Positions 10,577 through 56,420 of a DNA stretch of 64,000 nucleotides are shown one piece after another (the first letter of the stretch is position 1; each line of letters opens with the position of its first letter). Source of the DNA: a virus. A program made the position numbers and the translations under genes. The notes below the pieces were generated by a model. The model was not told where the DNA came from. It searched no databases and worked only from the letters and a program-made list of their open reading frames with translations. The stretch is taken from positions 32,001 to 96,000 of IMG/VR virus record IMGVR_UViG_3300026522_000001. One strand, given 5' to 3'.

Positions 10577-12382
10577 TTACTGTTTCCACATCCATTTTGT
10601 ATTACCACATCTCCATACTTGAAATGCGCCTAGCTTATCCATTATATACACTTCTTTATTTCCTACTTCTTTATTTATTGCTTCTTCAAACAAATCAGGA
10701 TAATCTTTTTTTAGATATTTTAACTGACAATGCTCTCTTTTTATTTCTTCCCCGTTCAAATACCAATAATATCTAGGTGTAGACTGACTATCAAATTTAT
10801 ACCCCAATACAGGATATATTCCCCCTAAAAAGTAGTCATTATCAGAATAGCTTCTTATGTATTTAGGACTATATTCTCTAATAAAGGCTTTATGCAGTTT
10901 ATTTGCACCGCCTACAATAGTATATCCATCTTTTACACAATACCTGTGTAACTCATATTCGCCACTTTCTGCTTTTGTCAATCTAGGCTTACCAAAAATC
11001 ATTACAGAATATAATTCGTCATTATAAAACAATCCATAATTATACAATGCAAAATGCTTTTGTGTTCTGCCCTGAATATGATATTTGTCACAAAAGCTAT
11101 TTGCTTCTTCCTCTGTAATATGTCTTACAATACATTTTCTTGCATAGATTGCTTTATTTTTTACTAATAATGACCTTAAATACATTTTTATTTTTTCAGA
11201 GTTTTTCTTCCAGTCAACATCAAAAATACTAATTAGATGTACACCATTTTCTTTGCATGTCAAAAATTTTTCTCTATGATATTCTTTATCTTTGCAATAT
11301 AGTTTATTATTTACTGAATGAAATACACTACCGTTATATTCAATAGCTAAATGCTTAGATGGAATATAAATATCAAGCTCTTTTCCACCTAATACACTTC
11401 TATTATGTTGCACTACTTCCTCGTTTGTAATGCTTTTTACATAATCATATATTTCTAATTCTGCTTGTGAACCTCTCTGTGCAATGTTTACACAACCACA
11501 AGAATAGCACTTACCAGCTTTGACGGAAGTAACTCGCATTATCTTATCTTTTCCACAATGTGTACAATGGAATTTCCAAAAAGTTGCCCCGTCTTTAGTA
11601 TAAACATATTCTTTAGCTACTAAATATCCAAACTGTTTCCCTGTAATATCTTCATATCTATGCTCATGTTTTTTATGTCCACAAGAAGTTGTTAAACCAC
11701 TTTTCATTCTTTTACCACAGATAACACACTTCTTTCCGCAAGAACATGTACAATTCCAATAAGCCCTATGTTCTTTAGTATATGCAAAAGAATCAACATG
11801 CAATTCTCCAAAAGTCTTTCCCGTTAAATCCTCACCAAAATGATTATGCTTTCCACAATCATCTGTCTTACCATTTCTTAGCCTTTGTCCACTAGCTACG
11901 CATGTGTTCCCACAATCACATACACAATTCCAATAAAGCCTATTATCTTTACTATATGCAAAAGAAGTTACTGTTAGTTTTCCAAATCTTTTACCAATAA
12001 GTTCTTTTCTTTCTTCCTCTGGCTTACACTTGCCACAGGATTTTCTTCTTCCATTTAACAAAGAGTCTCCATCTGCAATAGTTTCATTTCCACAATCACA
12101 TTTACACCTAAATTTACTTTTACCAACATACTCCAATACAGTAAGGCTACCATACTTATTCCCAATCATATAATCATATTTTGTTGACTTCTTTTTTAAT
12201 ATACATTCTTTACAATGTGTTGTTATACCTTTTGTTAAATTTCCTGTTGCTGTTTCAATAGTGCCACCACAATCACATTTACATAACCAAAGTACCTTTC
12301 CACTATTTGATTTATGGTTGCATTTATTTAATACAACTAAGCTCCCAAATCTTTTCCCAGCTAAATTTAATGCTTTTGGCAT
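10577..12382 (-). CDS. homing-endonuclease-like protein: five tandem Cys-rich ribbon repeats, a DUF559/Vsr-like PD-(D/E)XK-type nuclease-like domain, and a conserved C-terminal domain
   Basis: Five repeats of GKRFGxLxV...WxCxCDCG...SCGC. These are followed by ELEIY...ELDIYIP...IEYNGSVFH...GVHLISIFDVDW and a C-terminal YELHRYCV..GGANKL..SYSDND..PRYYWY domain. It is a paralog of 13814-15460 and has its own promoter and a terminator upstream. Confidence 0.6.
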   Translation of the reverse strand: MPKALNLAGKRFGSLVVLNKCNHKSNSGKVLWLCKCDCGGTIETATGNLTKGITTHCKECILKKKSTKYDYMIGNKYGSLTVLEYVGKSKFRCKCDCGNETIADGDSLLNGRRKSCGKCKPEEERKELIGKRFGKLTVTSFAYSKDNRLYWNCVCDCGNTCVASGQRLRNGKTDDCGKHNHFGEDLTGKTFGELHVDSFAYTKEHRAYWNCTCSCGKKCVICGKRMKSGLTTSCGHKKHEHRYEDITGKQFGYLVAKEYVYTKDGATFWKFHCTHCGKDKIMRVTSVKAGKCYSCGCVNIAQRGSQAELEIYDYVKSITNEEVVQHNRSVLGGKELDIYIPSKHLAIEYNGSVFHSVNNKLYCKDKEYHREKFLTCKENGVHLISIFDVDWKKNSEKIKMYLRSLLVKNKAIYARKCIVRHITEEEANSFCDKYHIQGRTQKHFALYNYGLFYNDELYSVMIFGKPRLTKAESGEYELHRYCVKDGYTIVGGANKLHKAFIREYSPKYIRSYSDNDYFLGGIYPVLGYKFDSQSTPRYYWYLNGEEIKREHCQLKYLKKDYPDLFEEAINKEVGNKEVYIMDKLGAFQVWRCGNTKWMWKQ

Positions 12383-12599: not shown

Positions 12600-13811
12600 T
12601 TACCACTCAGGTAGATATTCACCTTTACCGCTCTGTGCATCAGAAACACGCTCGATTGCTGTAACCTTTGCATATGGGAACTGTGGGTGGTGTTCTGAAT
12701 CGTCCAAAAAGTCAATTTTTAGCTTATAAGAGCCAAAATCACTTGAGATAAGACCTGAAAGGTCGCCATCAGGCTGCACTTTGACCTTCCAACCTTCTAT
12801 TGTATAGTTGATACCAACATTAGCGTCACCAACAAATAGAAGTTCACCTTCAATATCTCCTGCGTCACCTAGTGAAACATTTGAGAATGTTCTTTCAGGA
12901 ACAGATGCACTAACTAGAACTGTGTCACCTGTCTTTAGTGAACCATTTGGAAGGAATCTTATGATACCTGCTCTTGCATCTTGTTCAGAGCAATCATAGT
13001 CTACACCTTTTACATATGCTGTCTTTGGTGCTACTATTTTTACTTCTGCCATTACACCTGAACTAAATGCTGTAAAAGAATCACTACTAGTTAGTGTTAT
13101 TACTGCTTTTGCACCACTTGCAAGAGTAAATGTTTCTGTTGTACCTGTTGTAGCTGTATACTTCTGTGCCGCGCCTGTAATACCTTCTTTGAAAGTTATT
13201 ACTAGCCCTGCAACATCACCATTAGCTGTGTTTGCTGTGTCTACACTAAAGAATAGTCTTTCATCTGTGCCTGTTGCATAAGCAGTTGCATCAATCTGTA
13301 TTTTACCACCTTTATCATCTGTTAGTGTAGAACCTGTAAAGTTCATAGAAGATGGCGCTGTCTTTACTGTTGCTGTTGCTTTACCTGCACCAACAGGCTT
13401 AACAACAATATCCTTTACATCATAGTATCTATTACCATCTGCATCTGTTAGTGTTATGATTCCTGGAACACTTGCAAGAGTATATGATTCATTAGTTAGT
13501 GTTACCGCTTCTTGCTTTGTTATTGCTTCCTCACCATAAAGACCGAGTGCAAGGTCATATGGGTTGTATTCTGTTAGTGTAAGAGAAGCACTAGGCTTAA
13601 CTGCTGTTGTAACTGTTGCCATTAGCGTTCTCTTTCTATTCATTGAACTGTTCTTTTCGACTGTTGTTACGTCTACTGTAATATTAAATTCATCAACATT
13701 GCCTAGATGGTGGAATCCGTTTGAATCCTTTGATGCACTCTTACGATTAAACCAAACTTCACCCGCCCCTACGAGGAGATCGGAAGCTAGACTTTGTGCC
13801 TGATTACTCAA
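12600..13811 (-). CDS. major tail (tube) protein with an Ig-like or beta-rich insertion
   Basis: 403 aa, T/G/A/V-rich and beta-type in composition. It lies between the head-tail connector genes and the chaperone. No sheath gene was seen, which implies a siphovirus-type tail. Confidence 0.55.
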   Translation of the reverse strand: MSNQAQSLASDLLVGAGEVWFNRKSASKDSNGFHHLGNVDEFNITVDVTTVEKNSSMNRKRTLMATVTTAVKPSASLTLTEYNPYDLALGLYGEEAITKQEAVTLTNESYTLASVPGIITLTDADGNRYYDVKDIVVKPVGAGKATATVKTAPSSMNFTGSTLTDDKGGKIQIDATAYATGTDERLFFSVDTANTANGDVAGLVITFKEGITGAAQKYTATTGTTETFTLASGAKAVITLTSSDSFTAFSSGVMAEVKIVAPKTAYVKGVDYDCSEQDARAGIIRFLPNGSLKTGDTVLVSASVPERTFSNVSLGDAGDIEGELLFVGDANVGINYTIEGWKVKVQPDGDLSGLISSDFGSYKLKIDFLDDSEHHPQFPYAKVTAIERVSDAQSGKGEYLPEW

Positions 13812-13813
13812 TA

Positions 13814-15460
13814 TTATTCCTCCCTTAAATTAAACAACCATTTTGTGTTGCCACTTCTATATACCTGACTTGCATTTAATTTTGTCATTACATAAATTTC
13901 TTTATTTGAAGCATTTTCTTTTAATGCTTCATTATAGATGTCTTTATACATTTCTTTTAGGTATTTTAACTGGCATTTTTCTCTTTTAAGCTCTACGCCG
14001 TTTAAGTACCAATAGTATCTAGGGTTTGTATACCCACTAAATGTATATCCTAGTCTATTGTAGATATTACCACTAAAGAAATCATTATCAGAATAGCTTA
14101 CTATTTGTTTTACATTGTGTGTTCTTTCAAAATACTTGTGTAATTTATTTGCCCCACCGACTACTGTATAGCCGTCCTTTACACAATATCTGTGTAATTC
14201 GTAGTAACCTTCTTTATTTTTAACAAATCTTTGATTACCAAAACACATTACACTAATCAATTCATTGTTATAGTATAAACCATAAATATATTTTGAAAGT
14301 CCTTTTCTTGAAGCCCCTTGTAAATGATATTTATTACAAAAGTCTTTATATGTCTCATAGTCTACATGTACTAGAGCGCATTTTCTTGCATATACCACTT
14401 TATTCTTTGTTAGCAATGATTTTAGATACATTTTAATCTTTTGTTTGTTTGATTCCCAGTCAACATCAAAGATATTTATTAAATGTACTCCTTTTTCTTT
14501 TGCTAATTTAAATTTATTAAAATGATATAGCTTGTCAACATTATCATATACGGAATTTACTGTTGCATGAAACATACTTCCATTATATTCTATACCTAAT
14601 TTATATTCAGGTAAATACAAGTCTATTTCTTTACCATCAAGAATTTCTCTTGTTTTTTCTATCTTTATATTTTTATTTAGTGATAATATATAATTTTTAA
14701 TTTCTAATTCTTCACTAGAACCTTCTTTTGCTATTGAAATGCAACCACAAGACTTGACTTCGCCGCGCATTACATATATTTTCTTTGCAATTATTTCATT
14801 ACCACAATCGCATCTAAATTTCCAGTAATGCCTTTTATCATCGCCCACATGGTCGAAACATATAGCTGTTAAATGATTGAATTTTTTATCCGTAATATCA
14901 ATAGTTCTTTCTTCATCTCGTAAACATCCACAAGACTTAGACCTCCCTGCTAATAACTTAGCTTTTTCTACTACTGATGTATTTCCACAATCACACCTAC
15001 ATAACCATTTTGCATCACCAACATAGGAAACTACTGTAAACCTACCAAATCTTCTACCAATAAATGAAGTGTCAATCTTTTTTCTACTACACCCACAAGA
15101 ATAATCTTTATCGTTCTTATGTGATATTAAGTAACTTCTTTTCTTTGTTGTGTAGTTTCCACATTCACACTTACATTTCCACAAGTCATTACCTAAATAT
15201 TCAACAATGGTAAGTTTCCCTATCTTTTTATTTAATAGGTCTTTGTTAAAGTTTTTTCTTTGTGCTTTCTTTCTTTGCTCTTTTCTAAAACACCCACAAG
15301 AAATTACCTTACCAGTATTTAGCAATGAACCTTGTACGGTTGTGTAATTTCCACAATCGCATTTACATAGCCATGCAGTCCGCCCGTTCTTCTTGCCATT
15401 CTCTCGAATAACTGTTAGTCTGCCAAACCGCTTTCCTGAAAGTTCTAGCTTTCGTCCCAC
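13814..15460 (-). CDS. homing-endonuclease-like protein, paralog with four ribbon repeats
   Basis: Four GKRFGRLTV...WLCKCDCGN...SCGC repeats. The nuclease-like and C-terminal domains are the same as in 10577-12382, at roughly 55-60% identity by eye. Confidence 0.6.
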   Translation of the reverse strand: MGRKLELSGKRFGRLTVIRENGKKNGRTAWLCKCDCGNYTTVQGSLLNTGKVISCGCFRKEQRKKAQRKNFNKDLLNKKIGKLTIVEYLGNDLWKCKCECGNYTTKKRSYLISHKNDKDYSCGCSRKKIDTSFIGRRFGRFTVVSYVGDAKWLCRCDCGNTSVVEKAKLLAGRSKSCGCLRDEERTIDITDKKFNHLTAICFDHVGDDKRHYWKFRCDCGNEIIAKKIYVMRGEVKSCGCISIAKEGSSEELEIKNYILSLNKNIKIEKTREILDGKEIDLYLPEYKLGIEYNGSMFHATVNSVYDNVDKLYHFNKFKLAKEKGVHLINIFDVDWESNKQKIKMYLKSLLTKNKVVYARKCALVHVDYETYKDFCNKYHLQGASRKGLSKYIYGLYYNNELISVMCFGNQRFVKNKEGYYELHRYCVKDGYTVVGGANKLHKYFERTHNVKQIVSYSDNDFFSGNIYNRLGYTFSGYTNPRYYWYLNGVELKREKCQLKYLKEMYKDIYNEALKENASNKEIYVMTKLNASQVYRSGNTKWLFNLREE

Positions 15461-23566: not shown

Positions 23567-23640
23567 TGGAGCGAATAATCAGAATCGAACTGACATATTA
23601 TCCTTGGAGGGGATATGTTCTACCATTGAACTATATTCGC
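23567..23640 (-). tRNA. tRNA-Gly(UCC) with an unusual C33
   Basis: Cloverleaf GCGAATA-TA-GTTC-AATGGTA-GAAC-A-TATCC-CCTCCAA-GGATA-ATAT-GTCAG-TTCGATT-CTGAT-TATTCGC-T-CCA. The discriminator is U, as in bacterial tRNA-Gly. Confidence 0.75.
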
Positions 23641-23642
23641 AT

Positions 23643-23716
23643 TGGATGCGGAAGAAAGAGTTGCACTTTCATCTCCTGCCTATGAAACAAGTATTCTTCT
23701 GTTAAACTATTCCGCT
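23643..23716 (-). tRNA. divergent tRNA with CAU anticodon (Met or Ile2-type)
   Basis: AGCGGAA..CTTGT-TTCATAG-GCAGG..GAAAG-TGCAACT-CTTTC-TTCCGCA-T-CCA. It has an A1/A72 mismatch, no GG in the D-loop, and a non-TTC T-loop. Confidence 0.5.
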
Positions 23717-23717
23717 A

Positions 23718-24036
23718 TGGTTGAGATAGATGGGCTTGAACCATCGACCTTTGGTTTATCTTGCTACTACATATTTCTATGTCCACAAAAAATATTGTGT
23801 TGTAGTCTGGGCTATATCTTCATCATTTCAGATGGGCAACGTATAGTCTCTACGAATCCTGTGCAATCAGTTTTCTCGGTATTGTCTTTAGCATTACCTA
23901 GTAAGAGTTTCACCGATATAGTTGCCTGCACTTTATACATTAACTCATTACATTAAATCTATTGCAAGTAATGATTCTGTATAAAGGCTCATATTATGTT
24001 TAAGACCACTGCTCTAACCTACTGAGCTATATCTCA
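23718..24036 (-). tRNA. tRNA-Ile(UAU) interrupted by a group I intron
   Basis: Exon 1 (24036-24002) and exon 2 (23759-23718) form a canonical 77-nt cloverleaf with CCA once 23760-24001 is removed. The resulting anticodon loop is CTTATAA. Confidence 0.8.
23760..24001 (-). ncRNA. group I intron (242 nt, no ORF) between anticodon positions 34 and 35
   Basis: The 5' exon ends in U and the intron ends in G. R-like GTAGAGACTATACG and S-like AAGATATAGCC elements are present. Helices P2, P2.1, P3, P4, P6, P7, P8 and P9 can be drawn by hand. Confidence 0.75.
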
Positions 24037-24040
24037 ATTA

Positions 24041-24115
24041 TGGTGGGCTTACTAAGAATCGAACTTAGATTGTGGGATTAGAAGTCCCATGTATTATCCT
24101 TTATACTATAAGCCC
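24041..24115 (-). tRNA. tRNA-Arg(UCU)
   Basis: GGGCTTA-TA-GTAT-AAAGGATA-ATAC-A-TGGGA-CTTCTAA-TCCCA-CAAT-CTAAG-TTCGATT-CTTAG-TAAGCCC-A-CCA. All stems are perfectly paired. Confidence 0.9.
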
Positions 24116-24338
24116 ATTATTACAAGTTTTTTCCTGTTTCCCCACCAAGCAGAATGGAAAACTTGAAAAACCATCTAACACACCCACATATTACTATGTA
24201 TATATCCATATGTAATGTTAGTCCCTAAGCCAGCTTACATTTTACTAGACGCATTTGATAAAGATTTATAAATCATATATGTATAACTTTTTTCAATTAA
24301 TTGCTGTGTGCGTCTATTCCCTTACCGCTTATATATTT

Positions 24339-24367
24339 ATTATACCACAGGTTAAGCCCTGTGTCAA
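24339..24367 (-). promoter_or_regulatory. sigma70-type promoter driving a leader of about 220 nt plus the tRNA cluster
   Basis: On the minus strand, TTGACA (24362-24367), a 17-nt spacer, and TGgTATAAT (24339-24347). Confidence 0.65.
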
Positions 24368-24452
24368 TACCTTATTTTTTTTTATTCTCCAAACTTGAAA
24401 TTCTGTTCTCCCCGATGACATGTACTTATTCTAACACATATTAGCCCCAATG

Positions 24453-26009
24453 TCAACAGTATTTGAAAATTTCTTCGACAACGTCATAGCGGGACTTATT
24501 CAGCTGTCTGCAAAAGGCTTTATATGGGTCAAGTTCATTACAACAAACCATATCTACAAGCTCTTTACTAAATCCACTCAAAAGAATTACACCATTTCTT
24601 GAGCTTTGAATTGGGACTGTACCATCATTATAACAAGAGACATTCCAAAAAATGAGTTTAGGAAGTTCATACCCACAATCCTTATACTTCTTCTCAATAT
24701 TCTCAAATAATGTGTCATTTTCTTGTATATTTTGATTGCGTAATGGGAATCCAAATGCATCTGTATCACACATAGCAGTATTAAACTGCATATCAGAAAT
24801 GATAAGAACATTCTTTGGCATATCTGCCTGTGTCGCATTACACTTCTTTGCTGTTTTTAGGATGAGGTCAAATACAGATTCAACATTAGTTGTACTACAT
24901 TCTGTATTTTTCATTAGCTTTTCTATATTGTCCCTTAATGTATTGCAGTTTACTGTAATCATCTTTGGGTTATTAGAAAATGCCATGATTTTATCTTTGA
25001 ATACACCTGTATTATTTTTTGCACAATACAGAGCAATTGAATCCCCAATTTCCATCGCTGAAACATTTTTTGATACATATGATAACATAGAGCCACTTCC
25101 ATCTCTAACAACAAGCGTATCAGCAAATGTTTTTGGTTTCTTTTGAGATTCCCAAAGACTCTCTAGGGTATTGTCAACAGGTTTCATTCCAATGCCAAAA
25201 AAATTAGCATCTTTCTCATATGCATGAACTATGTCATACAAAAACATAGAATTAGCATTTATCTTATTTTCGCCACGAGCTACATCAATAAGATATTCAT
25301 TTCTTCTAGCAAAATCGTGCTTAAGAAAAGAATCCTTATACTTGATATTTGCTAAAGATGGTACATGAGAGTAATCTACTTTATCCCATTTATTTGAACT
25401 TAACTTTACCTCTAAAACATCTAGCCCTTTTCTTAGTTTAGAAAGTGTTTTTCTATACTGTGAAGGAGACATTCTAAAATATTTTCTAAGTTCATTACCA
25501 ACTGCTACTGTTTTCTTTGAAGATGTATTGATACTCGGCATCCATTTTGCTAAAAGACTGTATGGCTTTCCATTGGAATAATTATATAAGTCATCATAAA
25601 GCTGTTCTTGCAAAATCCCTGCAATATATATTTTTAAGTCATCATATTTTGTATTTGCAAAAAGATAAATATAGTCGTCCCATCTGCCAAATTCAGGCAA
25701 GTCAACCGTGTAAATAAATCTATAGAAAATAGACATATCGATTTCTGTAAGATGAAGTAGCAACTTTCTAAAAGTATCTCTTTCACCCATTCCTTCTCTG
25801 ACATCTCTCAAAAAGAGAAGGAATCTTAATGTCATAGCTTTATCTTGATAATATGCTTCATCAAAAAGAGAATAATCTATTGGATTTTCCCTAAATGATG
25901 AAACTTTATAGAAAAAATCTAAAAGTTTACTGCCTGTTGTAGCATAAGCTACTGCACCATTTTCTGTTGTTGTTTTTACATTGTTTTCAAGATTTTCAAT
26001 AAAATTCAT
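24453..26009 (-). CDS. DUF2828-type protein with a Ro60/TROVE-like N-terminus and a C-terminal vWA domain
   Basis: The N-terminus TTENGAVAYATTGSKLLDFF resembles the TROVE entry motif (N-x-E/N-G-G/A-x-A-F/Y). The C-terminal MIDAS motif VVRDGSGSM is followed by ISDMQFN. This TROVE-plus-vWA architecture matches Ro60. Confidence 0.6.
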   Translation of the reverse strand: MNFIENLENNVKTTTENGAVAYATTGSKLLDFFYKVSSFRENPIDYSLFDEAYYQDKAMTLRFLLFLRDVREGMGERDTFRKLLLHLTEIDMSIFYRFIYTVDLPEFGRWDDYIYLFANTKYDDLKIYIAGILQEQLYDDLYNYSNGKPYSLLAKWMPSINTSSKKTVAVGNELRKYFRMSPSQYRKTLSKLRKGLDVLEVKLSSNKWDKVDYSHVPSLANIKYKDSFLKHDFARRNEYLIDVARGENKINANSMFLYDIVHAYEKDANFFGIGMKPVDNTLESLWESQKKPKTFADTLVVRDGSGSMLSYVSKNVSAMEIGDSIALYCAKNNTGVFKDKIMAFSNNPKMITVNCNTLRDNIEKLMKNTECSTTNVESVFDLILKTAKKCNATQADMPKNVLIISDMQFNTAMCDTDAFGFPLRNQNIQENDTLFENIEKKYKDCGYELPKLIFWNVSCYNDGTVPIQSSRNGVILLSGFSKELVDMVCCNELDPYKAFCRQLNKSRYDVVEEIFKYC

Positions 26010-26273
26010 CTTTTTTCTTCCTTCCTAGATACAAAATAATTATCCCATATTATTATTTATTATTGATTGCTGTATGTATCTAAATAAATTAAAATTATAT
26101 TATAAATACTTTAGGTTATGAATACCAAAACAAATCAATACAATTCCTGAAATTAGAATAAGACTAACTAGCATTATATATCTCCAAAAAGCAATTTGCT
26201 TTAACATCTATTGGTTTCATCATTTTGACTACTTATGCTATCCACCACGTAAAGGTTGATGTTACTGGATAAC

Positions 26274-26354
26274 TGCCCCTGACAGGATTCGAACCTGCAC
26301 GTCTTTCGACAACGGATTTTGAATCCGCACTGTCTTCCATTCCAGCACAAGGGC
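26274..26354 (-). tRNA. tRNA-Leu(CAA), long variable arm, no encoded CCA
   Basis: GCCCTTG..GCGGA-TTCAAAA-TCCGT, a variable arm TGTCGAAAGACGT, then GCAGG-TTCGAAT-CCTGT-CAGGGGC-A. Confidence 0.85.
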
Positions 26355-37513: not shown

Positions 37514-37547
37514 ATATACTATTACGTCCTTTCTTATAAAGTAACGG

Positions 37548-37612
37548 TATAGTGGTACTCCGAGAGTAAAGAAATATGCCTATCTTCTGACAAGCAAATC
37601 AGTACCACTATA
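37548..37612 (-). promoter_or_regulatory. 12-bp perfect inverted repeat in the methyltransferase leader
   Basis: TATAGTGGTACT (37548-37559) pairs with AGTACCACTATA (37601-37612), 35-100 nt upstream of the ATG. Confidence 0.5.
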
Positions 37613-38175
37613 GTATCCCTATCCATTAGTAATTATACTACTATAAAGTTGTAAATGCAACTTTTTATATACTATAAAAGAACTGGTTATGTTTCGGCAA
37701 TAAGAGAAAGAAAGAGAACATTTATATTACTAAAAATCCGGTAGTAAAAGAAAAGAAGAAAAGCGTATGTATAAATTATACTATATAGAGAGTATAGAAA
37801 GAAAGAGAGAGAGAAACAAACTATATATAAGAATACTATATAAACACTCTATAAAATTAAATAGAAAGTTTTAGGTTTTTATTATGTGATGTTATAAAAT
37901 TTAGAATATAGAATAGAGCAATGTGTATATACAGAACCAAATAGAAAATCTCAAAAAATTTTTCATCATGGGTTGTACAGCTGGCCCAATCTCAAAACTT
38001 GAATCCACGGGGCCTATATTCACTTTTAATATTTCAATAATATTTTTATAATTTTATAATATTTAATTTTTATATAATATTTTTATAATACATAGTAACA
38101 TGATAGGCTATCAATAAGATAGGTTATAAAATTGATAGGCTATAAAACATAGTGAAAAGATATGTAATAAAGAGA

Positions 38176-38211
38176 AGAAAAAAAAGAGGAAGAATTTTTT
38201 TTCTTCCTCTT
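38176..38211 (-). terminator. rho-independent terminator
   Basis: 11-bp stem AAGAGGAAGAA/TTCTTCCTCTT followed by a T-run on the minus strand. Confidence 0.75.
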
Positions 38212-38219
38212 TGAGATAT

Positions 38220-38959: not shown

Positions 38960-39590
38960 GATAGAACTCCTTTCTGCCGTCTCTTGACGGCAACACCAAT
39001 TAATTTTGTCTTGTTCCCTTGGAACAATTATATATTACTACGCCGCCACAAAAATTGCAATTATAAAAGCATTAAAAATAAAATTAGAGAAATCGCTGGT
39101 GTAGGCCTGTAGGCAAAATATCTTTTTCCTTCTATATATAGGAAGGAAAATGTACTGTATATACACAAGCAGGAAATATACACACTTTCTTCTATTATAT
39201 AGAAAGAAAAAGCTAGCACGCTTGACTATATACTGCATATCAGGCAGGTATGTTATTATATGCTATATATATATACGCCTATATATCCTTATATATAATA
39301 TTATCTATGTTTCACGTGAAACATCTATATAGCGCCCTATAATTGTATCTATAATTGTATATGATTTTGGTTTGAAATTTTTTTTGAGATAAGATTTTTT
39401 CGTTGTTGCTTTCTATATAGCTATAATTATACTATGTTGTTTATGCCGATTTTTGCCCTTTTTCACTGTTAAAATCTTGTGATAATCTTGCTAAAATCTT
39501 TATGTTTTTAGGCTATATTTTATGCTATGTTTGCTATAATTGTGTTCTCTATTTAGCTATATAGATGTATCTATAATTGTGTTTATATAC

Positions 39591-39610
39591 TTATCCACAT
39601 CTTATCCACT
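39591..39610 (+). promoter_or_regulatory. two adjacent DnaA-box matches
   Basis: TTATCCACA (39591-39599, 9/9 match) and TTATCCACT (39602-39610, 8/9 match). Confidence 0.55.
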
Positions 39611-39657
39611 TTATACACATCTATAATTGTCTATAATTGTCTGTCTGCGAATTTCAG

Positions 39658-39830
39658 ACGATTTACCACTATCTTTTGCCATATTGTATATATATATAGC
39701 TATAATCACATATAATTTTTCTAAAACGATTTACCACATCTTTTTGCCAATCTATATATATAAAATCTAAAAAACGATTTGCCACTATCTTTTGCCAATC
39801 TATATATATATAGCTATATTACATTTCTTT
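39658..39830 (+). repeat. three tandem copies of a unit of about 55 nt
   Basis: ACGATTTACCAC(T)ATCTTTTGCCAATCTATATATATA occurs three times with small differences. Confidence 0.7.
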
Positions 39831-40442
39831 TTTCTATTGATAATGGTAAAACTATTTTACCATTTATATTCTTTTCTATATAGTGTATCTTTTCCTATAT
39901 AGTTTTACCTCTATATAGTATATTCTTTATTACTCTTATTCTCTATATTACTATAATTGTATAATATCCTTTTCTTTTTTTGTTTACTGCCGGAAGGTGA
40001 AATGATTTATTCTTTATGTTGTTACTACTCTTATTCTATATAGTATACTCTTTTTCTTTTTCTCTTTTGTTTACTGCCGAATAATCTATGATATATTCTC
40101 TATATAGCTATATATGTTATAATTGTTATACATTCTTTTCTTTTTTCTTTTTTCTTTCTGCCGCGCTGAAAGTTGATATAATTGTAGATATACTGTTTAT
40201 ATACTGTTGATACACTGTTGATATAATTGTGTTATATTTTATACACATATCTATGTTATAATTCTTGTTATTTATTATGTGATAAATTATAACATAAATT
40301 ATCGTATTCTTATGTTACACCTTATAGTATAATTGTTATTATAATCATTGTTATATTAAGTATTTTTATTGATTTTTCATATGGATAATATATAATTGAT
40401 TCTATCTATATATTACAGACGTTTTTCCCATATATATTGTAT

Positions 40443-40471
40443 AAAAAAAATAGCTCCATTGATGGAGCTAT
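40443..40471 (-). terminator. rho-independent terminator
   Basis: Stem TAGCTCCAT/ATGGAGCTA followed by T8 on the minus strand. Confidence 0.75.
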
Positions 40472-40486
40472 AAAACATATTATCTT

Positions 40487-50726: not shown

Positions 50727-51199
50727 AGTATAATATCCTCCGTGTCACCAAACAAATATCTAAGGTATTCGTCTAAGTTTCTGTTTTTATATTCCTTATA
50801 TATTCTACTAAAATTTTCTTTTGCATTAACATTTATATGTATACAATATTTACAGATAAAATTAGTTAGTTCTTCTTCTATATTACTCCAAATCTTATGA
50901 TGGTCATTTTCTTTATATGTTTCTTCTGTGTCAAAAATACGAATAGCTTTTATAATTGTAGTGTCAAAATAATAATCTTGATGCAAATAATTGTTGTTAT
51001 AAGCATCAGATAGCCCATACTCTTTTAGTTTCTTCTGTATAAACCTTTCTAACATAGAAATCTTTTGTTTATATACTTCTTTTGTGTTGTATTCTTTATA
51101 GATATATTTTTCTACTTCCCAAATAAACCTATCTCTATCTGATACAAGCTCATCAAATTTATATAGCTTATATCTTGGTTTTACTTTGTAGTTTTGCAT
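50723..51199 (-). CDS. hypothetical protein
   Basis: 158-aa ORF. Confidence 0.4.
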   Translation of the reverse strand: MQNYKVKPRYKLYKFDELVSDRDRFIWEVEKYIYKEYNTKEVYKQKISMLERFIQKKLKEYGLSDAYNNNYLHQDYYFDTTIIKAIRIFDTEETYKENDHHKIWSNIEEELTNFICKYCIHINVNAKENFSRIYKEYKNRNLDEYLRYLFGDTEDIIL

Positions 51200-51608
51200 T
51201 TTCTAACCTCCGTATTTTCATCTGATAAATCCCATTGTAATCCGTATATACAATTCTTTTTATTCCTGCCGTTATAATTCTTCTTTGACAAGCAGGACAA
51301 GGAAAACAATTTCCTAAGTTACCATTTTTTAATTCTCTATAGATATAAATGGTAGCCCCATCTATATCTAAATGCTTACATTTCATTAGTGCATCCATCT
51401 CTGCATGAAGATTATTTTCTTTTGTAGTAAACCCTCTATATTTTTTATTAAAAACTTTCATGATAGGATGTGACTTATGTTTATTATACCCAACAGAAAT
51501 AATTTCACTTTTAAGTACAATAACTGCACCTATTTTTATTTTTCTATAATCTGATAGATTACTAACTTCTTTAGCTATAGAAATAAATCTTTCGTCCTTC
51601 TTATTCAT
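51168..51608 (-). CDS. dCMP deaminase
   Basis: Zinc-binding motifs HAEMDAL and PCPACQRRI. I moved the start to MNKKDERF because the promoter at 51640-51668 overlaps the longer track ORF. Confidence 0.8.
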   Translation of the reverse strand: MNKKDERFISIAKEVSNLSDYRKIKIGAVIVLKSEIISVGYNKHKSHPIMKVFNKKYRGFTTKENNLHAEMDALMKCKHLDIDGATIYIYRELKNGNLGNCFPCPACQRRIITAGIKRIVYTDYNGIYQMKIRRLENAKLQSKTKI

Positions 51609-51639
51609 AGTAACTACCTTTCTTATACCTCTAATAACC

Positions 51640-51686
51640 AGTTTACTACAAATACAAAAAGGTGTCAAGTTAAAATTTTATTAAAA
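51640..51686 (-). promoter_or_regulatory. promoter with a conserved UP-like element
   Basis: On the minus strand, TTTTAATAAAATTTTAAC, then TTGACA, a 17-nt spacer, and TAAACT. Confidence 0.55.
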
Positions 51687-52153: not shown

Positions 52154-53107
52154 TTACGCACAATCTTTAATGAGCGCTACAGCTTTATCGAACATCTGAT
52201 TACCATTAATGACACTCAAGAGATTATTCTCTTTTTCATTTTTGGTATGGCGTGTAGTCGCTAAACCATGAAAAATCATGTCGCTAAATGCGTTTACTGC
52301 TTTATATGCAGTACCATTGAAATTTTGGAGGTCATCAGCCTGCATACATTTTTTGAAGTTTTCATGCATCGCAATCATATTGTTTAACTTGCGATTTGTG
52401 TATTCCCCATCTTCCTTGATTGGGAACATCTTGTCCAAAATACCCTTAATCTGATTTCCGCTAAGTTTCTGTTTAGCAAGCGCGATGCACTCATCGTCAA
52501 ACGCTTTATTGTACTTATCTGCCATCATGAGACATTGCTTTGCTTCCTGCAATTTACCACCAATATCTCCCTTATGGGCGAAACTCCACTTACGTTTCGC
52601 ACCTTTCAACGCTATATTTAATGTGTTATTGCATACTACCCTAACAGGCGTAATAGCAACATTGATAGAACGCTTTCCATCAAAGGAATTTGAGAACAAC
52701 AGATACTTGTCAATGTCATCCCCTAAGATATTCGTGCTTGGGATGCGTGCAAGCATCCAAGTCAGCTTGCCATTTTGCAAACTACCTGCTGTCTCATACT
52801 TCACATCATCATTGTCCAAAAGTGCATCCGTGAACTCGAATGCATCTTCATTTTGGACGATTTCATACCTATCAGATACAAAACCCAAAATAGCATGGTC
52901 TGTATCACGATAGTTGCACAGAAGGTCTGTATAAAAACCCTCTTCTTCATCGTCAGGCATTGCGCACATTGGTGCTTGCAGGACTTTCCAATCAAGACCT
53001 GCTTTCTTGATGGCTGTCTTTGAATCCGGTGCATCCTTGATAACTACACCCATACCATGCCAAGCAGGCTCACGAACGAAAAAACCACTCTCAAATTCTG
53101 CGGACAT
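52154..53107 (-). CDS. DUF932-type phage/plasmid-associated protein
   Basis: The N-terminus FFVREPAWHGMG...AGLDWKV is typical of that family. I moved the start to MSAEFES, which has a GGAGG RBS. The gene is GC-elevated. Confidence 0.55.
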   Translation of the reverse strand: MSAEFESGFFVREPAWHGMGVVIKDAPDSKTAIKKAGLDWKVLQAPMCAMPDDEEEGFYTDLLCNYRDTDHAILGFVSDRYEIVQNEDAFEFTDALLDNDDVKYETAGSLQNGKLTWMLARIPSTNILGDDIDKYLLFSNSFDGKRSINVAITPVRVVCNNTLNIALKGAKRKWSFAHKGDIGGKLQEAKQCLMMADKYNKAFDDECIALAKQKLSGNQIKGILDKMFPIKEDGEYTNRKLNNMIAMHENFKKCMQADDLQNFNGTAYKAVNAFSDMIFHGLATTRHTKNEKENNLLSVINGNQMFDKAVALIKDCA

Positions 53108-53178
53108 TTCTAATTCCTCCATTTCTTTTACCTGCAAGAAATTTATTTTGTTCTTGCCTCGAATTACCTTACACGTTT

Positions 53179-53207
53179 ATATTACAATACACTGGAGGAA
53201 TTGTCAA
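53179..53207 (-). promoter_or_regulatory. sigma70-type promoter
   Basis: On the minus strand, TTGACA (53202-53207), a 17-nt spacer, and TAATAT. Confidence 0.55.
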
Positions 53208-53267
53208 TTAAAGAATACTTAAAAATTATTAAAAGGCAAAAAAGAAATAGAAGAAATTCCTAAATAG

Positions 53268-53465
53268 TTATTCATGATTATCTATACATACCATTGCTAA
53301 TTTTATTTCAGCAAAAGCATTAACAATATGTTTGTGAAATTCTTTATTGCTATGTGAATAATTTAGCTCCATTATTCCTTGAAGTAATTTAGATACCTTA
53401 AATAAATTATTCTTTATTGCTAAAATTATTGGGCTACTGCTCTTTTTATTCATATTATATATCAC
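53268..53465 (-). CDS. hypothetical protein
   Basis: 65-aa ORF. Confidence 0.35.
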   Translation of the reverse strand: MIYNMNKKSSSPIILAIKNNLFKVSKLLQGIMELNYSHSNKEFHKHIVNAFAEIKLAMVCIDNHE

Positions 53466-54728
53466 CTCTAATACATCTAAAAATCGGCAGAGAATAACAA
53501 AGAAAAGACCATTTTCGTAATGTCACGAATATGGTATAATAATAAAAAAAAATAAACTTCTTATCATACCAAGCATACAATCCAAAAAAATTATATGTTT
53601 AGCATGACAAGAAGTTTATTAAATATACACATCTATAATTGTAGTGCCTATAAGGTAAAAATATAAAAAATATCTTTTGATATTTTATTATTTTTTATTG
53701 TTTTGTCTATACAATATTTATCCATGCTATTTCTCCATTTCTCTTTCCTTTTAGCAATTCAATAATTGTTTGTTATTGTTTATATTATTATATGTATATT
53801 ATCTTATCTATATATACTTTTATGCTTGATGGCGAGTGAGCGTTTTGACTAGGAAACGAATACCCACCTAGCAGCATAGCAGAATATCAGAATAATAAAA
53901 ATATAGAGATATCCAATACACCAAAAATTAGTATATCTTTTTGCTATGCTACTAGGCAGGTAGGTTTCCTAATCAAAAGCTCAGTCAAATCTGCCATTAT
54001 TAATCACACTAATAATAGTACATTTGACTGAGGTTTCCATATCTATAACTGTTTTTGATACATTAACTATTTATTTTCAGTCCAGTTAGTGTAAAAAATC
54101 TCATTCGCCCCTTGATTCAGTTATTTAACCCACTTAGTTCATCTATTAGACAAACTAAACGAATTTCCATTAGCACACTTCTATGTAAATTCATTATGAT
54201 AAAAATTTTTACATATATGTTTCCCTCCCGTTTTGCCGCCACATGGTCGGAGACACCATCTCTCACTCTTGTTGACATATCCTATCACCACCATATAAAT
54301 ATATGATTCAGAATATCCTTTGGCACAAGGAGAACGTGCCAATCTCTATGCTATACAAAATCTATGAATACCACATGAATAATACATACTCTGCATTGTA
54401 TAGTTTACAGATTGTTGCTTTTTGTCTCTAATCATAACTATATGGCTATAATTATAACTCAAACAAGACTCTAAGTAGTATGTATTTTTAGTCTTTATAT
54501 ATGCAACTTAACATACACAAAGCTACATGATTTTCTGGGTGTATTCCCTCCAACCTATATCTAGGTTTATTTAATTAGCGGACTAGCTGTTTGATTTTTG
54601 CGATGTGCAGTGCTACCACACACGGTTTGATAACACAGTTCTTGCTCTTTCTGCGGGTTTAATAAGTCGGGCTTGTCCTTCCTGACAAATGACAAAATAA
54701 AATAGAAACTTTCTACTTCATCTTTCAT
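53466..54728 (-). ncRNA. candidate large noncoding transcript (about 1.2 kb, ORF-free, hairpin-rich)
   Basis: A consensus promoter at 54735-54763 fires into this region. No minus-strand ORF of 60 aa or more is present. Long hairpins lie at 53555-53625, 53838-53982 and 53982-54030. Confidence 0.35.
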
Positions 54729-54734
54729 ACTTTT

Positions 54735-54763
54735 ATTATAACATAAAATGGAGAGGTTGTCAA
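54735..54763 (-). promoter_or_regulatory. consensus sigma70 promoter with its -35 box in the loop of a 10-bp hairpin
   Basis: On the minus strand, TTGACA (54758-54763), a 17-nt spacer, and TGtTATAAT. The hairpin is GGAGAGGTTG-T-CAACCTCTCC at 54750-54770. Confidence 0.65.
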
Positions 54764-54863
54764 CCTCTCCATCTAAATAAATATTTTAACAACAAGAGTT
54801 AGAAAGTCAGGGCAACTTCCTAACTATTGTTCATTAGCAAGAAAACAAGCCTGATAAAAACTA

Positions 54864-55166
54864 TTACAATAACATCTCCCATTCTTTGATAGTCATATAG
54901 TCCTCGCCGGAGTAGACAACGTACTCATCCGGTGGCCAACCATCAAAGTCAGGCAAGGCAATCCGATATTCCTTGCCGTCTACGACGGTTTTATAATTCC
55001 CGTCATAAGCGTCAGAAACTACGGGATTCAGCCATAACATACCGGTTCTATTCTTCTCTGCTTCTGCCTTTTCAGCAAGATAATTGGCAACAGCTTTACG
55101 TGCATTTTCCTTTTTCATTTTATTCGTTCCTTTCTGTATAGTTTCTATAATTTCATTTTTTGTCAT
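54864..55166 (-). CDS. hypothetical protein (MTK.EI N-terminus family)
   Basis: 100-aa ORF with a GGAGGG RBS. Confidence 0.45.
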   Translation of the reverse strand: MTKNEIIETIQKGTNKMKKENARKAVANYLAEKAEAEKNRTGMLWLNPVVSDAYDGNYKTVVDGKEYRIALPDFDGWPPDEYVVYSGEDYMTIKEWEMLL

Positions 55167-55598: not shown

Positions 55599-55629
55599 CT
55601 CTTAGCCCTCCTTTGACTTTTCTGCTTGT

Positions 55630-55658
55630 ATTATATACCAAACACAATAAGTTGTCAA
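55630..55658 (-). promoter_or_regulatory. sigma70-type promoter
   Basis: On the minus strand, TTGACA (55653-55658), a 17-nt spacer, and TATAAT (55630-55635). Confidence 0.6.
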
Positions 55659-55870
55659 CCCATTTTTTGCAGGTAGCCTATTTTTTTTTTATTCATAGTT
55701 CTATATGCCCTGTTTGGCATTTCCTAGCATGAACTATTTTAATAACGCCCTCTGTACGTGCCGTAGGACGCCCGCTGACGGGTGTCTAACCCACTTTAGG
55801 TATAATTATACCTGTGGCAGAAAATGAACGCTTAGAGAGCGCCATAGGGGCTGAAAAAAAAATAAAAATA

Positions 55871-55905
55871 TAAAAAAAATACTTGCAAAGATATATTGCA
55901 AGTAT
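55871..55905 (-). terminator. rho-independent terminator after dut
   Basis: 10-bp stem ATACTTGCAA/TTGCAAGTAT followed by T8 on the minus strand. Confidence 0.75.
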
Positions 55906-55925
55906 ATGTGGATAGATATATTTAT

Positions 55926-56420
55926 TTAGTTAGTCCCTGTGCTACCAATACCACCTGTTCTAGTTTGGTCAGCATTATCATTATCTACAACACCATATTT
56001 TTGGAAAACTCCTTGTGCTACTCTTTCAAAAGGTTCTAGTGTTACAGACTCATCACCATAGTTATATAAAGCTACAATGATATGTCCTTCATTATCTTCG
56101 TTGTTATAGAAATCACTATCCACGATTCCCACGGCATTATTTAGCATTAGATGCTTTTTAATACCAATAGAACTTCTAATATAAATTGCTAGAAATTCAT
56201 CCTTTGGCATATATGCTTTAATGCCTGTATTAAATACTTTTGATTCATGAGGTTTAATTGTTACTGGTGTAGTGCTATAGATGTGGATGTCATATCCACA
56301 ACTATTTTTTGTTTTTCTTGTTGGAAGAATTGCATTATCAAATCCTGAAACTCTTTCAAATCCTCGAATCTTATTGTTGTAATCATGAATTTCTACTTTG
56401 TTGTTTTCTTTGATAATCAT
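55926..56420 (-). CDS. dut: dUTP diphosphatase
   Basis: Motifs SCGYDIH, RSSIG, GIVDSDF and TRTGGIGSTG. Confidence 0.85.
   Translation of the reverse strand: MIIKENNKVEIHDYNNKIRGFERVSGFDNAILPTRKTKNSCGYDIHIYSTTPVTIKPHESKVFNTGIKAYMPKDEFLAIYIRSSIGIKKHLMLNNAVGIVDSDFYNNEDNEGHIIVALYNYGDESVTLEPFERVAQGVFQKYGVVDNDNADQTRTGGIGSTGTN

What the first reader, a model, noticed from the sequence alone, without database searches (positions are those of the whole stretch)
53466..54770. Consensus promoter firing into about 1.2 kb of ORF-free, hairpin-dense sequence: candidate large noncoding RNA
The promoter at 54735-54763 (TTGACA-17-TGtTATAAT, minus strand) is followed by about 1260 nt. That stretch has no minus-strand ORF of 60 aa or more, and only one 64-aa plus-strand ORF that looks spurious. 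It contains unusually long helices. One is a 17-bp stem, AATAAACTTCTTATCAT/ATGACAAGAAGTTTATT, at about 53555-53625. Another is an imperfect hairpin with arms of about 40 nt at 53838-53982, where GAGCGTTTTGACTAGGAAACGAATACCCACCTAGCAGCATAGCA pairs with TGCTATGCTACTAGGCAGGTAGGTTTCCTAATCAAAAGCTC. A third is a nested hairpin at 53982-54030, with CAGTCAAAT/ATTTGACTG enclosing ATTATTA/TAATAAT. Segments such as 54230-54260 and 54590-54690 are GC-elevated. Large ornate RNAs such as ROOL, GOLLD and OLE are known from Firmicutes prophages, often in genomes that also carry tRNAs. I cannot match this sequence to any of them by eye.
Basis: partly seen in the sequence, partly recalled or inferred. Interest (0 to 1): 0.62.

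Follow-up and report, generated by a model that had tools for sequence, protein, structure and literature searches.

The report
New large structured RNA in gut phage
The protein-free stretch is a real gene for an intricately folded RNA of about 900 bases, found only in one group of gut phages; it matches no catalogued RNA family, sits as a self-contained insert behind a perfect promoter, and its function is unknown.

Summary
A 12/12 sigma-70-type promoter with a TG extension (54763-54735, minus strand) is followed by about 1.19 kb with no credible ORF under three genetic codes, and the named hairpins are present.

The window lies in a 118.8-kb terminally redundant phage (31% GC, Firmicutes-type signals). 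I recovered five further sequence variants of the stretch from independent gut metagenome assemblies (70-97% identical). They keep about 195 base pairs in 30 helices: 98% of cells are paired, against 38-45% in slid controls, and 50 pairs show compensatory changes, against 1-7. G-U pairs and consensus energy place the RNA on the promoter's strand. No ORF is conserved.

Nothing in Rfam 15 matches, including ROOL, GOLLD, OLE, raiA, HEARO and group I/II introns.

A relative with an empty site shows the RNA is a discrete 954-nt insert (54696-53743) between a leader hairpin and the ribosome site of a 182-aa gene. That gene was lost twice independently while the RNA kept evolving under pairing constraint. 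I therefore read it as a stand-alone RNA, not a leader or an intron.

The scan had noted this same stretch in an overlapping window, but no look-alike on other DNA.

The parts
54746..54774 (-). Terminator-like hairpin of the upstream 100-aa gene, carrying the -35 hexamer in its loop
   Evidence: 13-pair stem followed by a T-run; I20, 12-nt perfect arms. The stem changes compensatorily in relatives.
54735..54763 (-). Promoter TTGACA-17-TGnTATAAT
   Evidence: 12/12 match with TG extension. Invariant hexamers in all six RNA-bearing variants, and also in RNA-less L010 and L024.
54689..54728 (-). Leader hairpin. The predicted transcription start is at about 54728, 7 nt after the -10 box (inferred).
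   Evidence: Helix 1 (17 pairs, no compensatory change). The same hairpin is present in the RNA-less relative L010, so it predates the insert.
53743..54696 (-). Discrete 954-nt noncoding insert, absent from the empty site in L010
   Evidence: L010 reads ...CTACTTCAT|AAGAAATGGAGAAATAATATG. The window, L014 and L108 carry the insert between these two points. nhmmer matches L010 only over the promoter and leader.
54043..54688 (-). Conserved multi-helix core of the RNA, about 25 helices including a large multi-branch domain closed by 54581-54577/54240-54236
   Evidence: 98% of cells paired, 50 pairs with compensatory change. blastn gives 73-74% identity to L007/L009 and 92% to L014. z = -3.6.
53985..54038 (-). 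Nested hairpin found only in the window-type lineage (window, L014, L108)
   Evidence: I2; gap in L007, L107 and L009.
53838..53982 (-). Long stalk hairpin (about 40-bp arms here, about 25 bp in L007/L009) with an A/U-rich apical part. Its 3' foot (53862-53851) can alternatively pair with the invariant AGGGGCGAAUG (54112-54102).
   Evidence: the stalk is present in every lineage with a different arm sequence. helix 25: 11 bp with one A-U/U-A swap.
53743..53837 (-). A/T-rich tail of the insert, not alignable between lineages
   Evidence: indels and no conservation between the window type and the L007 type.
53686..53742 (-). Remnant of the ribosome site and first ~13 codons (ATG 53725-53723) of a 182-aa gene that is intact in L014-L017, L108 and L010
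   Evidence: The deletion in the window lies between two copies of AACAATAAAAA(A)CAATAA. L007 and L009 carry a deletion with different end points.
53541..53620 (-). A/T-rich hairpin plus T-run, the probable terminator of the unit
   Evidence: I1. Conserved downstream of the 182-aa gene in relatives with and without the RNA.

Best explanation
The stretch is a gene for a previously uncatalogued large structured RNA, about 890 nt from 54728 to about 53840 on the minus strand.

Shown:
- It sits directly behind a perfect host-type promoter.
- It is a discrete 954-nt insert between a leader hairpin and the ribosome site of a small phage gene.
- It lies in a hypervariable accessory slot between the dUTPase and DUF932 genes of a group of ~115-120-kb gut phages.
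- Its fold of about 30 helices is kept by compensatory substitutions.
- No reading frame is conserved.
- It persisted under pairing constraint in two lineages that independently lost the downstream gene.

Inferred:
- The host RNA polymerase transcribes it early in infection.
- It acts as an RNA product in its own right, not as a leader or an intron.
- The long near-perfect stalk serves as a double-strand-specific processing site (RNase III type) and 3' protective end, separating the folded RNA from downstream message.
- Invariant purine-rich single-stranded segments (AAGGACAA, AAAGAGCAWGAA, GGGAGGGAA, AAGGGGCGA) and a GNRA-type tetraloop make tertiary or partner contacts.

Most likely role, with low certainty: a scaffold or decoy that binds a host or phage factor, or a self-assembling RNA particle like ROOL and GOLLD. 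An accessory, counter-defence-type role would fit the slot, which in relatives holds a cytosine methylase, small genes or transposon guide RNA instead.
For: Promoter. It is conserved in all variants.

No coding capacity. The ORFs differ in frame and length between lineages, lack ribosome sites, and the alignment has many indels that are not multiples of three.

Structure: 195-229 pairs, 97.7-97.9% of cells paired against 36-45% with slid partners; 50-54 pairs with change on both sides against 1-9; 0 of 500 shuffles reach the observed values.

Independent check: several helices predicted from the window alone gain compensatory support in the other lineages.

Strand: 180 of 1141 paired cells are G-U. 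Consensus energy is -147.7 for the sense strand against -108.5 for the antisense.

Constraint after loss of the neighbouring gene: L007 and L009 differ by 21 compensatory double changes against 6 breaks, and both lack the gene.

Modularity: the same RNA has different left neighbours in the window, L014, L007, L107, L009 and L108. There is an empty site in L010, and other cargo occupies the slot in L021/L022, L024 and L109.

No match to Rfam 15.
Against: - There is no expression data.
- Only six variants, effectively three lineages plus one mosaic, all from one phage group. The consensus structure was derived from the same sequences that were then counted.
- Some long-range helices are uncertain and differ between two consensus predictions (147 pairs in common).
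- No intrinsic terminator follows the structured part. In L014 and L108 the RNA is physically the 5' leader of the 182-aa gene.
- RNase III processing, partners and function are all inference.
- Narrow distribution: nothing in IMG/VR, JGI metagenomes, GTDB genomes or GenBank phages.
Confidence: 0.6

Rival explanations
1. Cis-acting leader RNA. The fold exists to control the genes downstream of the promoter (the 182-aa gene, the 59-65-aa gene, DUF932), for example by processive antitermination, message stabilisation or translational control.
For: It begins at the transcription start. In L014-L017 and L108 it is the 5' untranslated region of the intact 182-aa gene. No terminator separates it from what follows. 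The 65-aa gene has no convincing promoter of its own, so it may depend on read-through of the 53551-53620 hairpin.
Against: At about 900 nt with about 30 helices, it is far larger than known leader elements. The immediately downstream gene was lost twice independently while the RNA stayed under pairing constraint. L010 expresses the same gene from the same promoter and leader without it. L021 and L109 lack it altogether.
Confidence: 0.15
2. Selfish mobile RNA element: an ORF-less self-splicing intron (group I, IStron-like or group II) or a non-autonomous IS200/IS605-type element that entered the leader. On this reading its structure serves only its own splicing or mobility.
For: The insert is precise, with no target duplication and no microhomology at the junctions, and it follows a T at the foot of a hairpin. 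Relatives carry TnpB and IscB with HEARO guide RNA, plus interrupted dUTPase genes. The insert lies inside a possible 17-codon leader frame coupled to the gene.
Against: No group I or group II model hit even at E <= 10. No GUGYG start and no domain V. The base before the 5' junction is C in L108, and the base before the 3' junction is A in L014, so U(-1) and omega-G are not conserved. By eye, no conserved guide pairing with the 5' exon. The last ~100 nt are unconserved A/T-rich sequence rather than a catalytic 3' domain. There is a single copy per genome, always in the same slot. The structure was kept after the 3' 'exon' decayed.
Confidence: 0.07
3. DNA-level element: a replication origin, packaging site or protein-binding array whose inverted repeats act as DNA.
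For: There are long near-perfect palindromes (stalk, nested hairpin). The window lineage shows inverted duplications of flanks that look like palindrome growth. The stalk is flanked by direct repeats that co-vary between lineages. A genome-wide 10-mer motif lies at 53633-53642.
Against: Pairing is kept through G-U intermediates. 16% of paired cells are G-U, which would be A-C mismatches in DNA or on the other strand. The sense strand is strongly favoured. Most covarying helices are short, irregular and multi-branched. The element is bracketed by a consensus promoter and a terminator. An origin-like repeat field lies elsewhere in the genome (note e1-3474665, not tested).
Confidence: 0.04
4. Decaying coding sequence or neutral spacer that only appears structured.
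For: The slot is hypervariable, and a neighbouring gene has decayed to a remnant.
Against: Identity of 73-92% over 650-1080 nt is as high as in the flanking genes. Compensatory changes far exceed the controls. No frame is shared between lineages, and no protein-like periodicity was seen.
Confidence: 0.03

Closest known systems
ROOL and GOLLD RNAs (large 'ornate' RNAs of phages and prophages; cryo-EM shows RNA-only homo-oligomeric cages; PMC12286853)
   Same: It is phage-encoded, 600-900 nt, very helix-rich, conserved by covariation and has no associated ORF. The carrying genome also encodes tRNAs. Function is unknown for all of them.
   Different: No covariance-model match at any threshold. 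It is not near the tRNA island (about 27 kb away). It is known only from one narrow phage group. No palindromic kissing-loop covariation was found. Oligomerisation is untested.
HEARO RNA (Rfam RF02033), the guide RNA of IscB nucleases of IS200/IS605 elements
   Same: It is a structured non-coding RNA carried by the same phages. In L024 an orphan HEARO copy occupies the same accessory slot.
   Different: HEARO is about 210-230 nt and matches its model at 115-129 bits in relatives. The RNA studied here does not match it at all, and has no IscB or TnpB gene beside it.
Self-splicing group I introns and IStrons of Firmicutes and their phages
   Same: It is a precisely bounded, ORF-free, structured insert within a transcribed region of a phage whose relatives have interrupted genes.
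   Different: No model hit, no conserved U(-1) or omega-G, and no recognisable P1 or core. It is retained after loss of the downstream exon.
Promoter-proximal phage leader RNAs such as HK022 put (processive antitermination; from established knowledge)
   Same: It starts at the transcription start of a phage operon and is upstream of a terminator-like hairpin.
   Different: It is an order of magnitude larger and is dispensable for that operon in relatives.

Membership tests
ROOL (Rfam RF03087) | Match to the family covariance model | tested here: not met
   No hit at the gathering score, or at E <= 10 on 53200-54900, or at E <= 5 on the L007 copy.
ROOL / GOLLD | Usual position beside tRNA genes in phages or prophages | tested here: not met
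   The nearest tRNA gene ends at 26354. The RNA starts at 53838-54728.
ROOL / GOLLD | Homo-oligomeric RNA-only cage | not testable with these tools
   This needs native gels or cryo-EM. A scan for loops switching between palindromes found none.
GOLLD (Rfam) | Match to the family covariance model | tested here: not met
   no hit.
OLE, raiA | Match to the family covariance model | tested here: not met
   no hit.
HEARO / IscB guide RNA (RF02033) | Match to the model and an adjacent IscB (RRXRR + HNH) ORF | tested here: not met
   No hit at the locus. The same search finds HEARO at 115-129 bits elsewhere in L007, L009 and L024, which serves as a positive control. There is no ORF in the stretch.
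Group I intron | Catalytic core recognisable by RF00028 | tested here: not met
   No hit at E <= 10. Caveat: the interrupted dUTPase genes of relatives also gave no hit, so the model may miss local intron types.
Group I intron | U before the 5' splice site, G as last intron base, guide pairing with the 5' exon | tested here: not met
   L108 has C before the 5' junction. L014 has A before the 3' junction. By eye, no conserved complementary guide within the first 60 nt.
Group II intron | GUGYG start, domain V, RF00029 match | tested here: not met
   The insert starts with YUUGUCAUUUG or YUUAUCAUUUG, depending on the variant. No model hit.
Non-autonomous IS200/IS605 element | Several copies at different sites, with related sub-terminal hairpins at both ends | tested here: not met
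   One copy in the 118.8-kb genome, always in the same slot in relatives. The ends are unrelated to each other.
Cis-regulatory leader (riboswitch or antiterminator type) | Conservation tied to the regulated downstream gene | tested here: not met
   The downstream 182-aa gene was deleted twice independently while the RNA was retained. The gene is expressed without the RNA in L010.
Structured non-coding RNA gene (generic) | Compensatory base changes above controls, strand specificity, no conserved ORF, own promoter | tested here: met
Structured non-coding RNA gene (generic) | A detectable discrete transcript | not testable with these tools

The most novel reading that the evidence does not exclude
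This is the founding member of a new class of large RNA machines carried as swappable, promoter-equipped cassettes in the accessory (counter-defence-type) slot of gut Firmicutes phages. The RNA would work without a dedicated protein, as a multimeric particle or a decoy for a host factor. The lineage-specific identical repeats flanking its stalk would be two recognition loops for one co-evolving nucleic-acid partner.
Probability: 0.25. Interest if true: 0.8.

Novelty: new variant of a known kind. Interest (0 to 1): 0.62.

Why it matters
Only about a dozen bacterial or phage RNAs above 500 nt with conserved complex folds are known. Every one that has been studied turned out to be a ribozyme, a ribonucleoprotein core or, recently, an RNA-only cage.

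This one has features that make it experimentally tractable:
- exact boundaries, because an empty site is available for comparison;
- natural presence/absence variants in otherwise near-identical phages;
- a natural experiment, loss of the neighbouring gene in two lineages, that separates the RNA's own selection from that of its neighbours.

It also shows that the accessory slots of gut phages exchange RNA genes as well as protein genes.

Tried and rejected
- Alternative genetic codes (TAG=Gln, table 4) open no credible frame.
- Rfam 15 at the gathering score and at permissive E-values, on the window and on relatives: no relevant hit.
- tRNA-like modules and tandem repeats: none.
- Micro-ORFs: none conserved in frame or length, and none with a ribosome site.
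- Group I, group II and IS605 readings: their defining features are not met (see the membership table).
- Pseudoknot scan of unpaired conserved segments: this recovered one covarying 8-bp helix that one consensus prediction had missed, plus an invariant candidate (UUAAAUAA with UUGUUUGA). Nothing else covaries.
- Loops that switch between palindromes, the signature of symmetric kissing seen in GOLLD and OLE: none.
- A cis partner for the co-varying direct repeats: none in L007 or L009.
- Wider relatives were sought and not found in any of the following:
  - INPHARED phages by blastn;
  - IMG/VR by a 17-mer, which gave three chance hits that blastn did not confirm;
  - JGI metagenomes and GTDB genomes by two patterns each;
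  - 80 IMG/VR loci with distant DUF932 genes, by nhmmer and by covariance model R1;
  - five whole IMG/VR phage records of 113-144 kb.
- Kin phages were reachable only through exact-protein look-ups. All 12 were used.
Full report
**Setting**

The window is bases 32001-96000 of a 118,805-bp IMG/VR phage record with direct terminal repeats and 31% GC. Nearly all genes are on the minus strand.

The terminase is closest (46% identity) to Clostridium, Oenococcus and Streptococcus phages. Strong GGAGG ribosome sites, extended -10 promoters and a RecU-like gene in relatives point to a Firmicutes host (inference).

The stretch lies in the replication and nucleotide-metabolism region, between a dUTPase gene (55926-56420) and DUF932 and dCMP-deaminase genes (52154-53122 and 51168-51668).

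**Checking the observation**

- The promoter is the only 12/12 match in the neighbourhood and has the TG extension. It follows two terminator-like hairpins, and its -35 hexamer lies in the loop of the second.
- The stretch has no ORF above 53 aa on the promoter's strand and one 64-aa ORF on the other strand. Stop-codon reassignment does not help.
- GC is mildly raised in the two named segments.
- The 689-nt core folds better than all 20 dinucleotide shuffles, z = -3.6.

**Relatives**

GenBank phages hold nothing similar. I searched with the neighbouring DUF932 protein, listed its clusters and used 12 exact-protein look-ups. This gave kin phage contigs from independent gut metagenome assemblies.

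The stretch is present in six sequence variants:

| Variant | Position | Identity and notes (calls) |
|---|---|---|
| Window | 54730-53831, minus strand (aligned extent) | the copy under study |
| L014-L017 | L014 1750-2830 | 92% to the window (28) |
| L108 | 2270-3380 | mosaic; 86% to the window, 84% to L007 (50) |
| L007/L008 | L007 8285-9440 | about 73% to the window (21) |
| L107 | 2990-4140 | 97.5% to L007 (50) |
| L009 | 4945-6090 | 74% to the window, 84% to L007 (21, 50) |

Identity over the first ~680 nt is as high as in the flanking protein genes.

**It is a structured RNA**

On the six-row alignment A5 I tested two RNAalifold consensus structures with explicit pair counts.

| Measure | Structure | Slid partners |
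|---|---|---|
| Cells that pair | 97.7-97.9% of 1165-1370 | 36-45% |
| Pairs changed on both sides | 50-54 | 1-9 |

None of 500 column shuffles reaches the observed pairing, compensatory count or covariation score.

Because the structure came from these same sequences, I also mapped the window's own single-sequence fold onto the alignment. Its long-range helices fail in other lineages, but several local helices gain compensatory support:
- 54525-54511/54504-54489
- 54403-54396/54358-54351
- 54341-54336/54326-54321
- 54161-54148/54144-54131

Well-supported helices, in window coordinates:

| Helix | Size and compensatory pairs | Note |
|---|---|---|
| 54686-54681/54671-54666 | 4 covarying pairs | loop AAGGACAA |
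| 54655-54651/54638-54634 | all 4 pairs covary | loop AAAGAGCAWGAA |
| 54624-54615/54611-54601 | 10 bp, nearly invariant | AGC triloop |
| 54581-54577/54240-54236 | long-range, 2 | closes a domain of about eight hairpins |
| 54564-54562/54557-54555 | 1 | tetraloop GAAA, GUGA or GAUA |
| 54552-54547/54541-54536 | 2 | |
| 54525-54511/54504-54489 | 14 bp, 4 | |
| 54469-54465/54428-54424 | 3 | |
| 54459-54446/54441-54430 | 12 bp, 6 | |
| 54403-54396/54358-54351 | 8 bp, 4 | |
| 54341-54336/54326-54321 | 2 | GGCAC/GUGCC against GGCGG/CCGCC |
| 54316-54310/54283-54277 | 3 | |
| 54307-54302/54296-54290 | 2 | |
| 54219-54215/54178-54174 | 2 | |
| 54161-54148/54144-54131 | 14 bp, 3 | |

Between the helices lie invariant single-stranded runs such as CAAAAAUC.AA.AGCUAGUCCG, CUAAAAAUA, GUGGUGAU, GGGAGGGAA and UCAAGGGGCGA.

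**Strand and coding**

Sixteen per cent of paired cells are G-U. The consensus energy is -147.7 kcal/mol for the promoter's strand and -108.5 for the opposite strand.

ORFs in the six variants differ in frame, length and sequence and lack ribosome sites. The alignment has many 1-, 2- and 15-nt indels. Coding is rejected.

**Anatomy: a discrete insert**

Relative L010 has the same promoter and the same leader hairpin, joined directly to the ribosome site and start of a 182-aa gene of unknown family...CTACTTCAT|AAGAAATGGAGAAATAATATG.

In L014-L017 and L108 the noncoding element lies exactly between those two points, and the gene is intact. In the window the element spans 54696-53743 (954 nt).

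The insert has three parts:
1. The conserved core (54688-54043).
2. A hairpin region (54038-53838) built around a long stalk. All lineages have the stalk, with different arm sequences.
3. An A/T-rich tail (53837-53743) that cannot be aligned between lineages.

An 11-bp helix between the invariant AGGGGCGAAUG (54112-54102) and the 3' foot of the stalk (53862-53851) shows one A-U/U-A swap. This suggests the stalk is integrated with the core, giving an RNA of about 890 nt.

After the insert, the window keeps only the ribosome site and about 13 codons of the 182-aa gene (ATG at 53725-53723), fused to that gene's downstream region and terminator (53620-53541). The deletion lies between two copies of AACAATAAAAA(A)CAATAA that flank the gene body in L014. 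L007, L107 and L009 carry a deletion with different end points.

**Selection on the RNA itself**

The gene was lost at least twice while the RNA was kept. L007 and L009 both lack the gene, yet differ by 21 compensatory double substitutions, 8 G-U-type single changes and only 6 breaks. Pairing was therefore maintained after the loss.

The left neighbours of the cassette differ between the variants. The slot between the dUTPase and DUF932 genes holds other cargo in RNA-less kin:
- a cytosine methylase plus small genes (L010);
- six small genes (L021/L022);
- an 89-aa gene plus an orphan HEARO RNA (L024);
- nothing (L109).

The RNA behaves as an independent, exchangeable accessory module.

**Comparison with known families**

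Rfam 15 gives only tRNAs in the window. It gives nothing meaningful at E <= 10 on the stretch or at E <= 5 on the L007 copy. The same library finds HEARO at 115-129 bits elsewhere in relatives.

Group I, group II and IS200/IS605 readings fail their defining features:
- no model hit;
- junction bases not conserved (C before the 5' junction in L108, A before the 3' junction in L014);
- no GUGYG start or domain V;
- a single copy, always at one site.

ROOL and GOLLD (PMC12286853) are the nearest in kind: large, ornate, phage-borne and of unknown function. They share neither sequence, model match nor tRNA-adjacent position with this RNA.

A covariance model of the best-conserved 188 nt (R1) finds only the RNA itself in 892 kb of held loci and in five further IMG/VR phage genomes. 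Pattern scans of IMG/VR, JGI metagenomes and GTDB genomes were empty. As far as these tools see, the family is confined to one phage group in gut metagenomes.

**Mechanism**

What is shown is listed above. My inference is early transcription by the host polymerase from a consensus promoter and folding into a multi-domain RNA. The near-perfect 25-40-bp stalk would be cleaved or protected in the way long double-stranded stems are used by RNase III in phage early transcripts (established knowledge of T7 and lambda). That would release a stable RNA of about 0.9 kb that acts in trans.

Its invariant purine-rich loops and junctions and its GNRA-type loop fit tertiary or partner contacts. Its position in a slot that otherwise carries a methylase or small accessory genes suggests an accessory, possibly counter-defence, role.

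**Unexplained**

The stalk is flanked by direct repeats that are identical within a lineage but differ between lineages:

| Lineage | Repeat |
|---|---|
| Window | CCU(C)AGUCAAA |
| L007/L107 | CCU(C)AUUGCAGAG |
| L009 | CCU(C)AUCAAAGAG |

The first copy follows GGAAAC and the second follows GUUUCC. L007 and L009 have no complementary partner for them in cis. In L007 and L009 each copy folds as a mini-hairpin with the same hexaloop. In the window lineage, inverted copies of both repeats have been added, lengthening the hairpins.

The repeats could be a target duplication, paired recognition loops for one partner, or recombination sites. I could not decide between these.

**Earlier notes of the scan**

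The same stretch was flagged in an overlapping window, and the hairpin-with-promoter arrangement was noted. A sequence look-up found look-alikes only in this genome. Other follow-ups describe unrelated new large phage RNAs elsewhere. I used those only as context.

Noticed in passing
window 54022-54033 and 53841-53851; L007 about 9062-9073 and 9206-9217: Direct repeats flank the long stalk. They are identical within each lineage but differ between lineages, and L007 and L009 have no complementary partner for them in cis.
   Followed up: partly
window 54686-54728; L010 8510-8565: A possible leaderless micro-ORF starts at the predicted transcription start (ATG 6 nt after TATAAT): M-x-(D/N)-E-(I/V)-E-S-F-Y-F... 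Codons 6-12 show mostly third-position changes. In RNA-less L010 it has 17 codons, and its TGA overlaps the ATG of the 182-aa gene. In RNA-bearing variants it runs into the insert and ends at varying points.
   Followed up: partly
L024 3435-3665; L007 11983-12199; L009 8628-8852: HEARO (IscB guide) RNAs occur in relatives, next to 419-420-aa RRXRR+HNH ORFs in L007 and L009. In L024 an orphan copy lies in the same accessory slot, where the 182-aa gene body is in L014. TnpB genes are also present (L007 16550-17662, L010 184-1290, L109 8673-9788). The window itself has no HEARO hit.
   Followed up: partly
L009 2728-4146; L022 1153-1970; L109 3302-4073: The dUTPase gene is split in some relatives: by an HNH_3 ORF in L009 and by about 300 nt without an ORF in L022 and L109. 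These are probably intervening sequences. No Rfam group I hit at the gathering score.
   Followed up: no
window 24453-26009: A 518-aa protein with DUF2828, DUF7788 and vWA-like domains (PHROG 850, 'RNA-binding protein', possibly Ro60-like) lies among the four tRNA genes (23570-26354).
   Followed up: partly
window 39239-40486, 37514-38219, 591-1321: Other long ORF-free gaps exist in the same phage. Covariance model R1 finds no copy of the RNA in the window outside 54477-54665, so these gaps do not hold one.
   Followed up: no
window 53633-53642: The motif ACAATTATAG (CTATAATTGT on the plus strand, reported elsewhere as over-represented in this genome) lies between the gene remnant and the terminator. 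It is conserved in relatives and duplicated in L009.
   Followed up: partly
window 10577-12382 and 13814-15460: Two large (601 and 548 aa) HNH/homing-endonuclease-like ORFs flank the major tail protein gene (12600-13811).
   Followed up: no
window 55600-55925; L024 2950-3060: A GC-rich multi-hairpin noncoding segment between the dUTPase terminator and the next promoter is conserved in L014, L010 and L024. It directly abuts the RNA cassette in L014.
   Followed up: no
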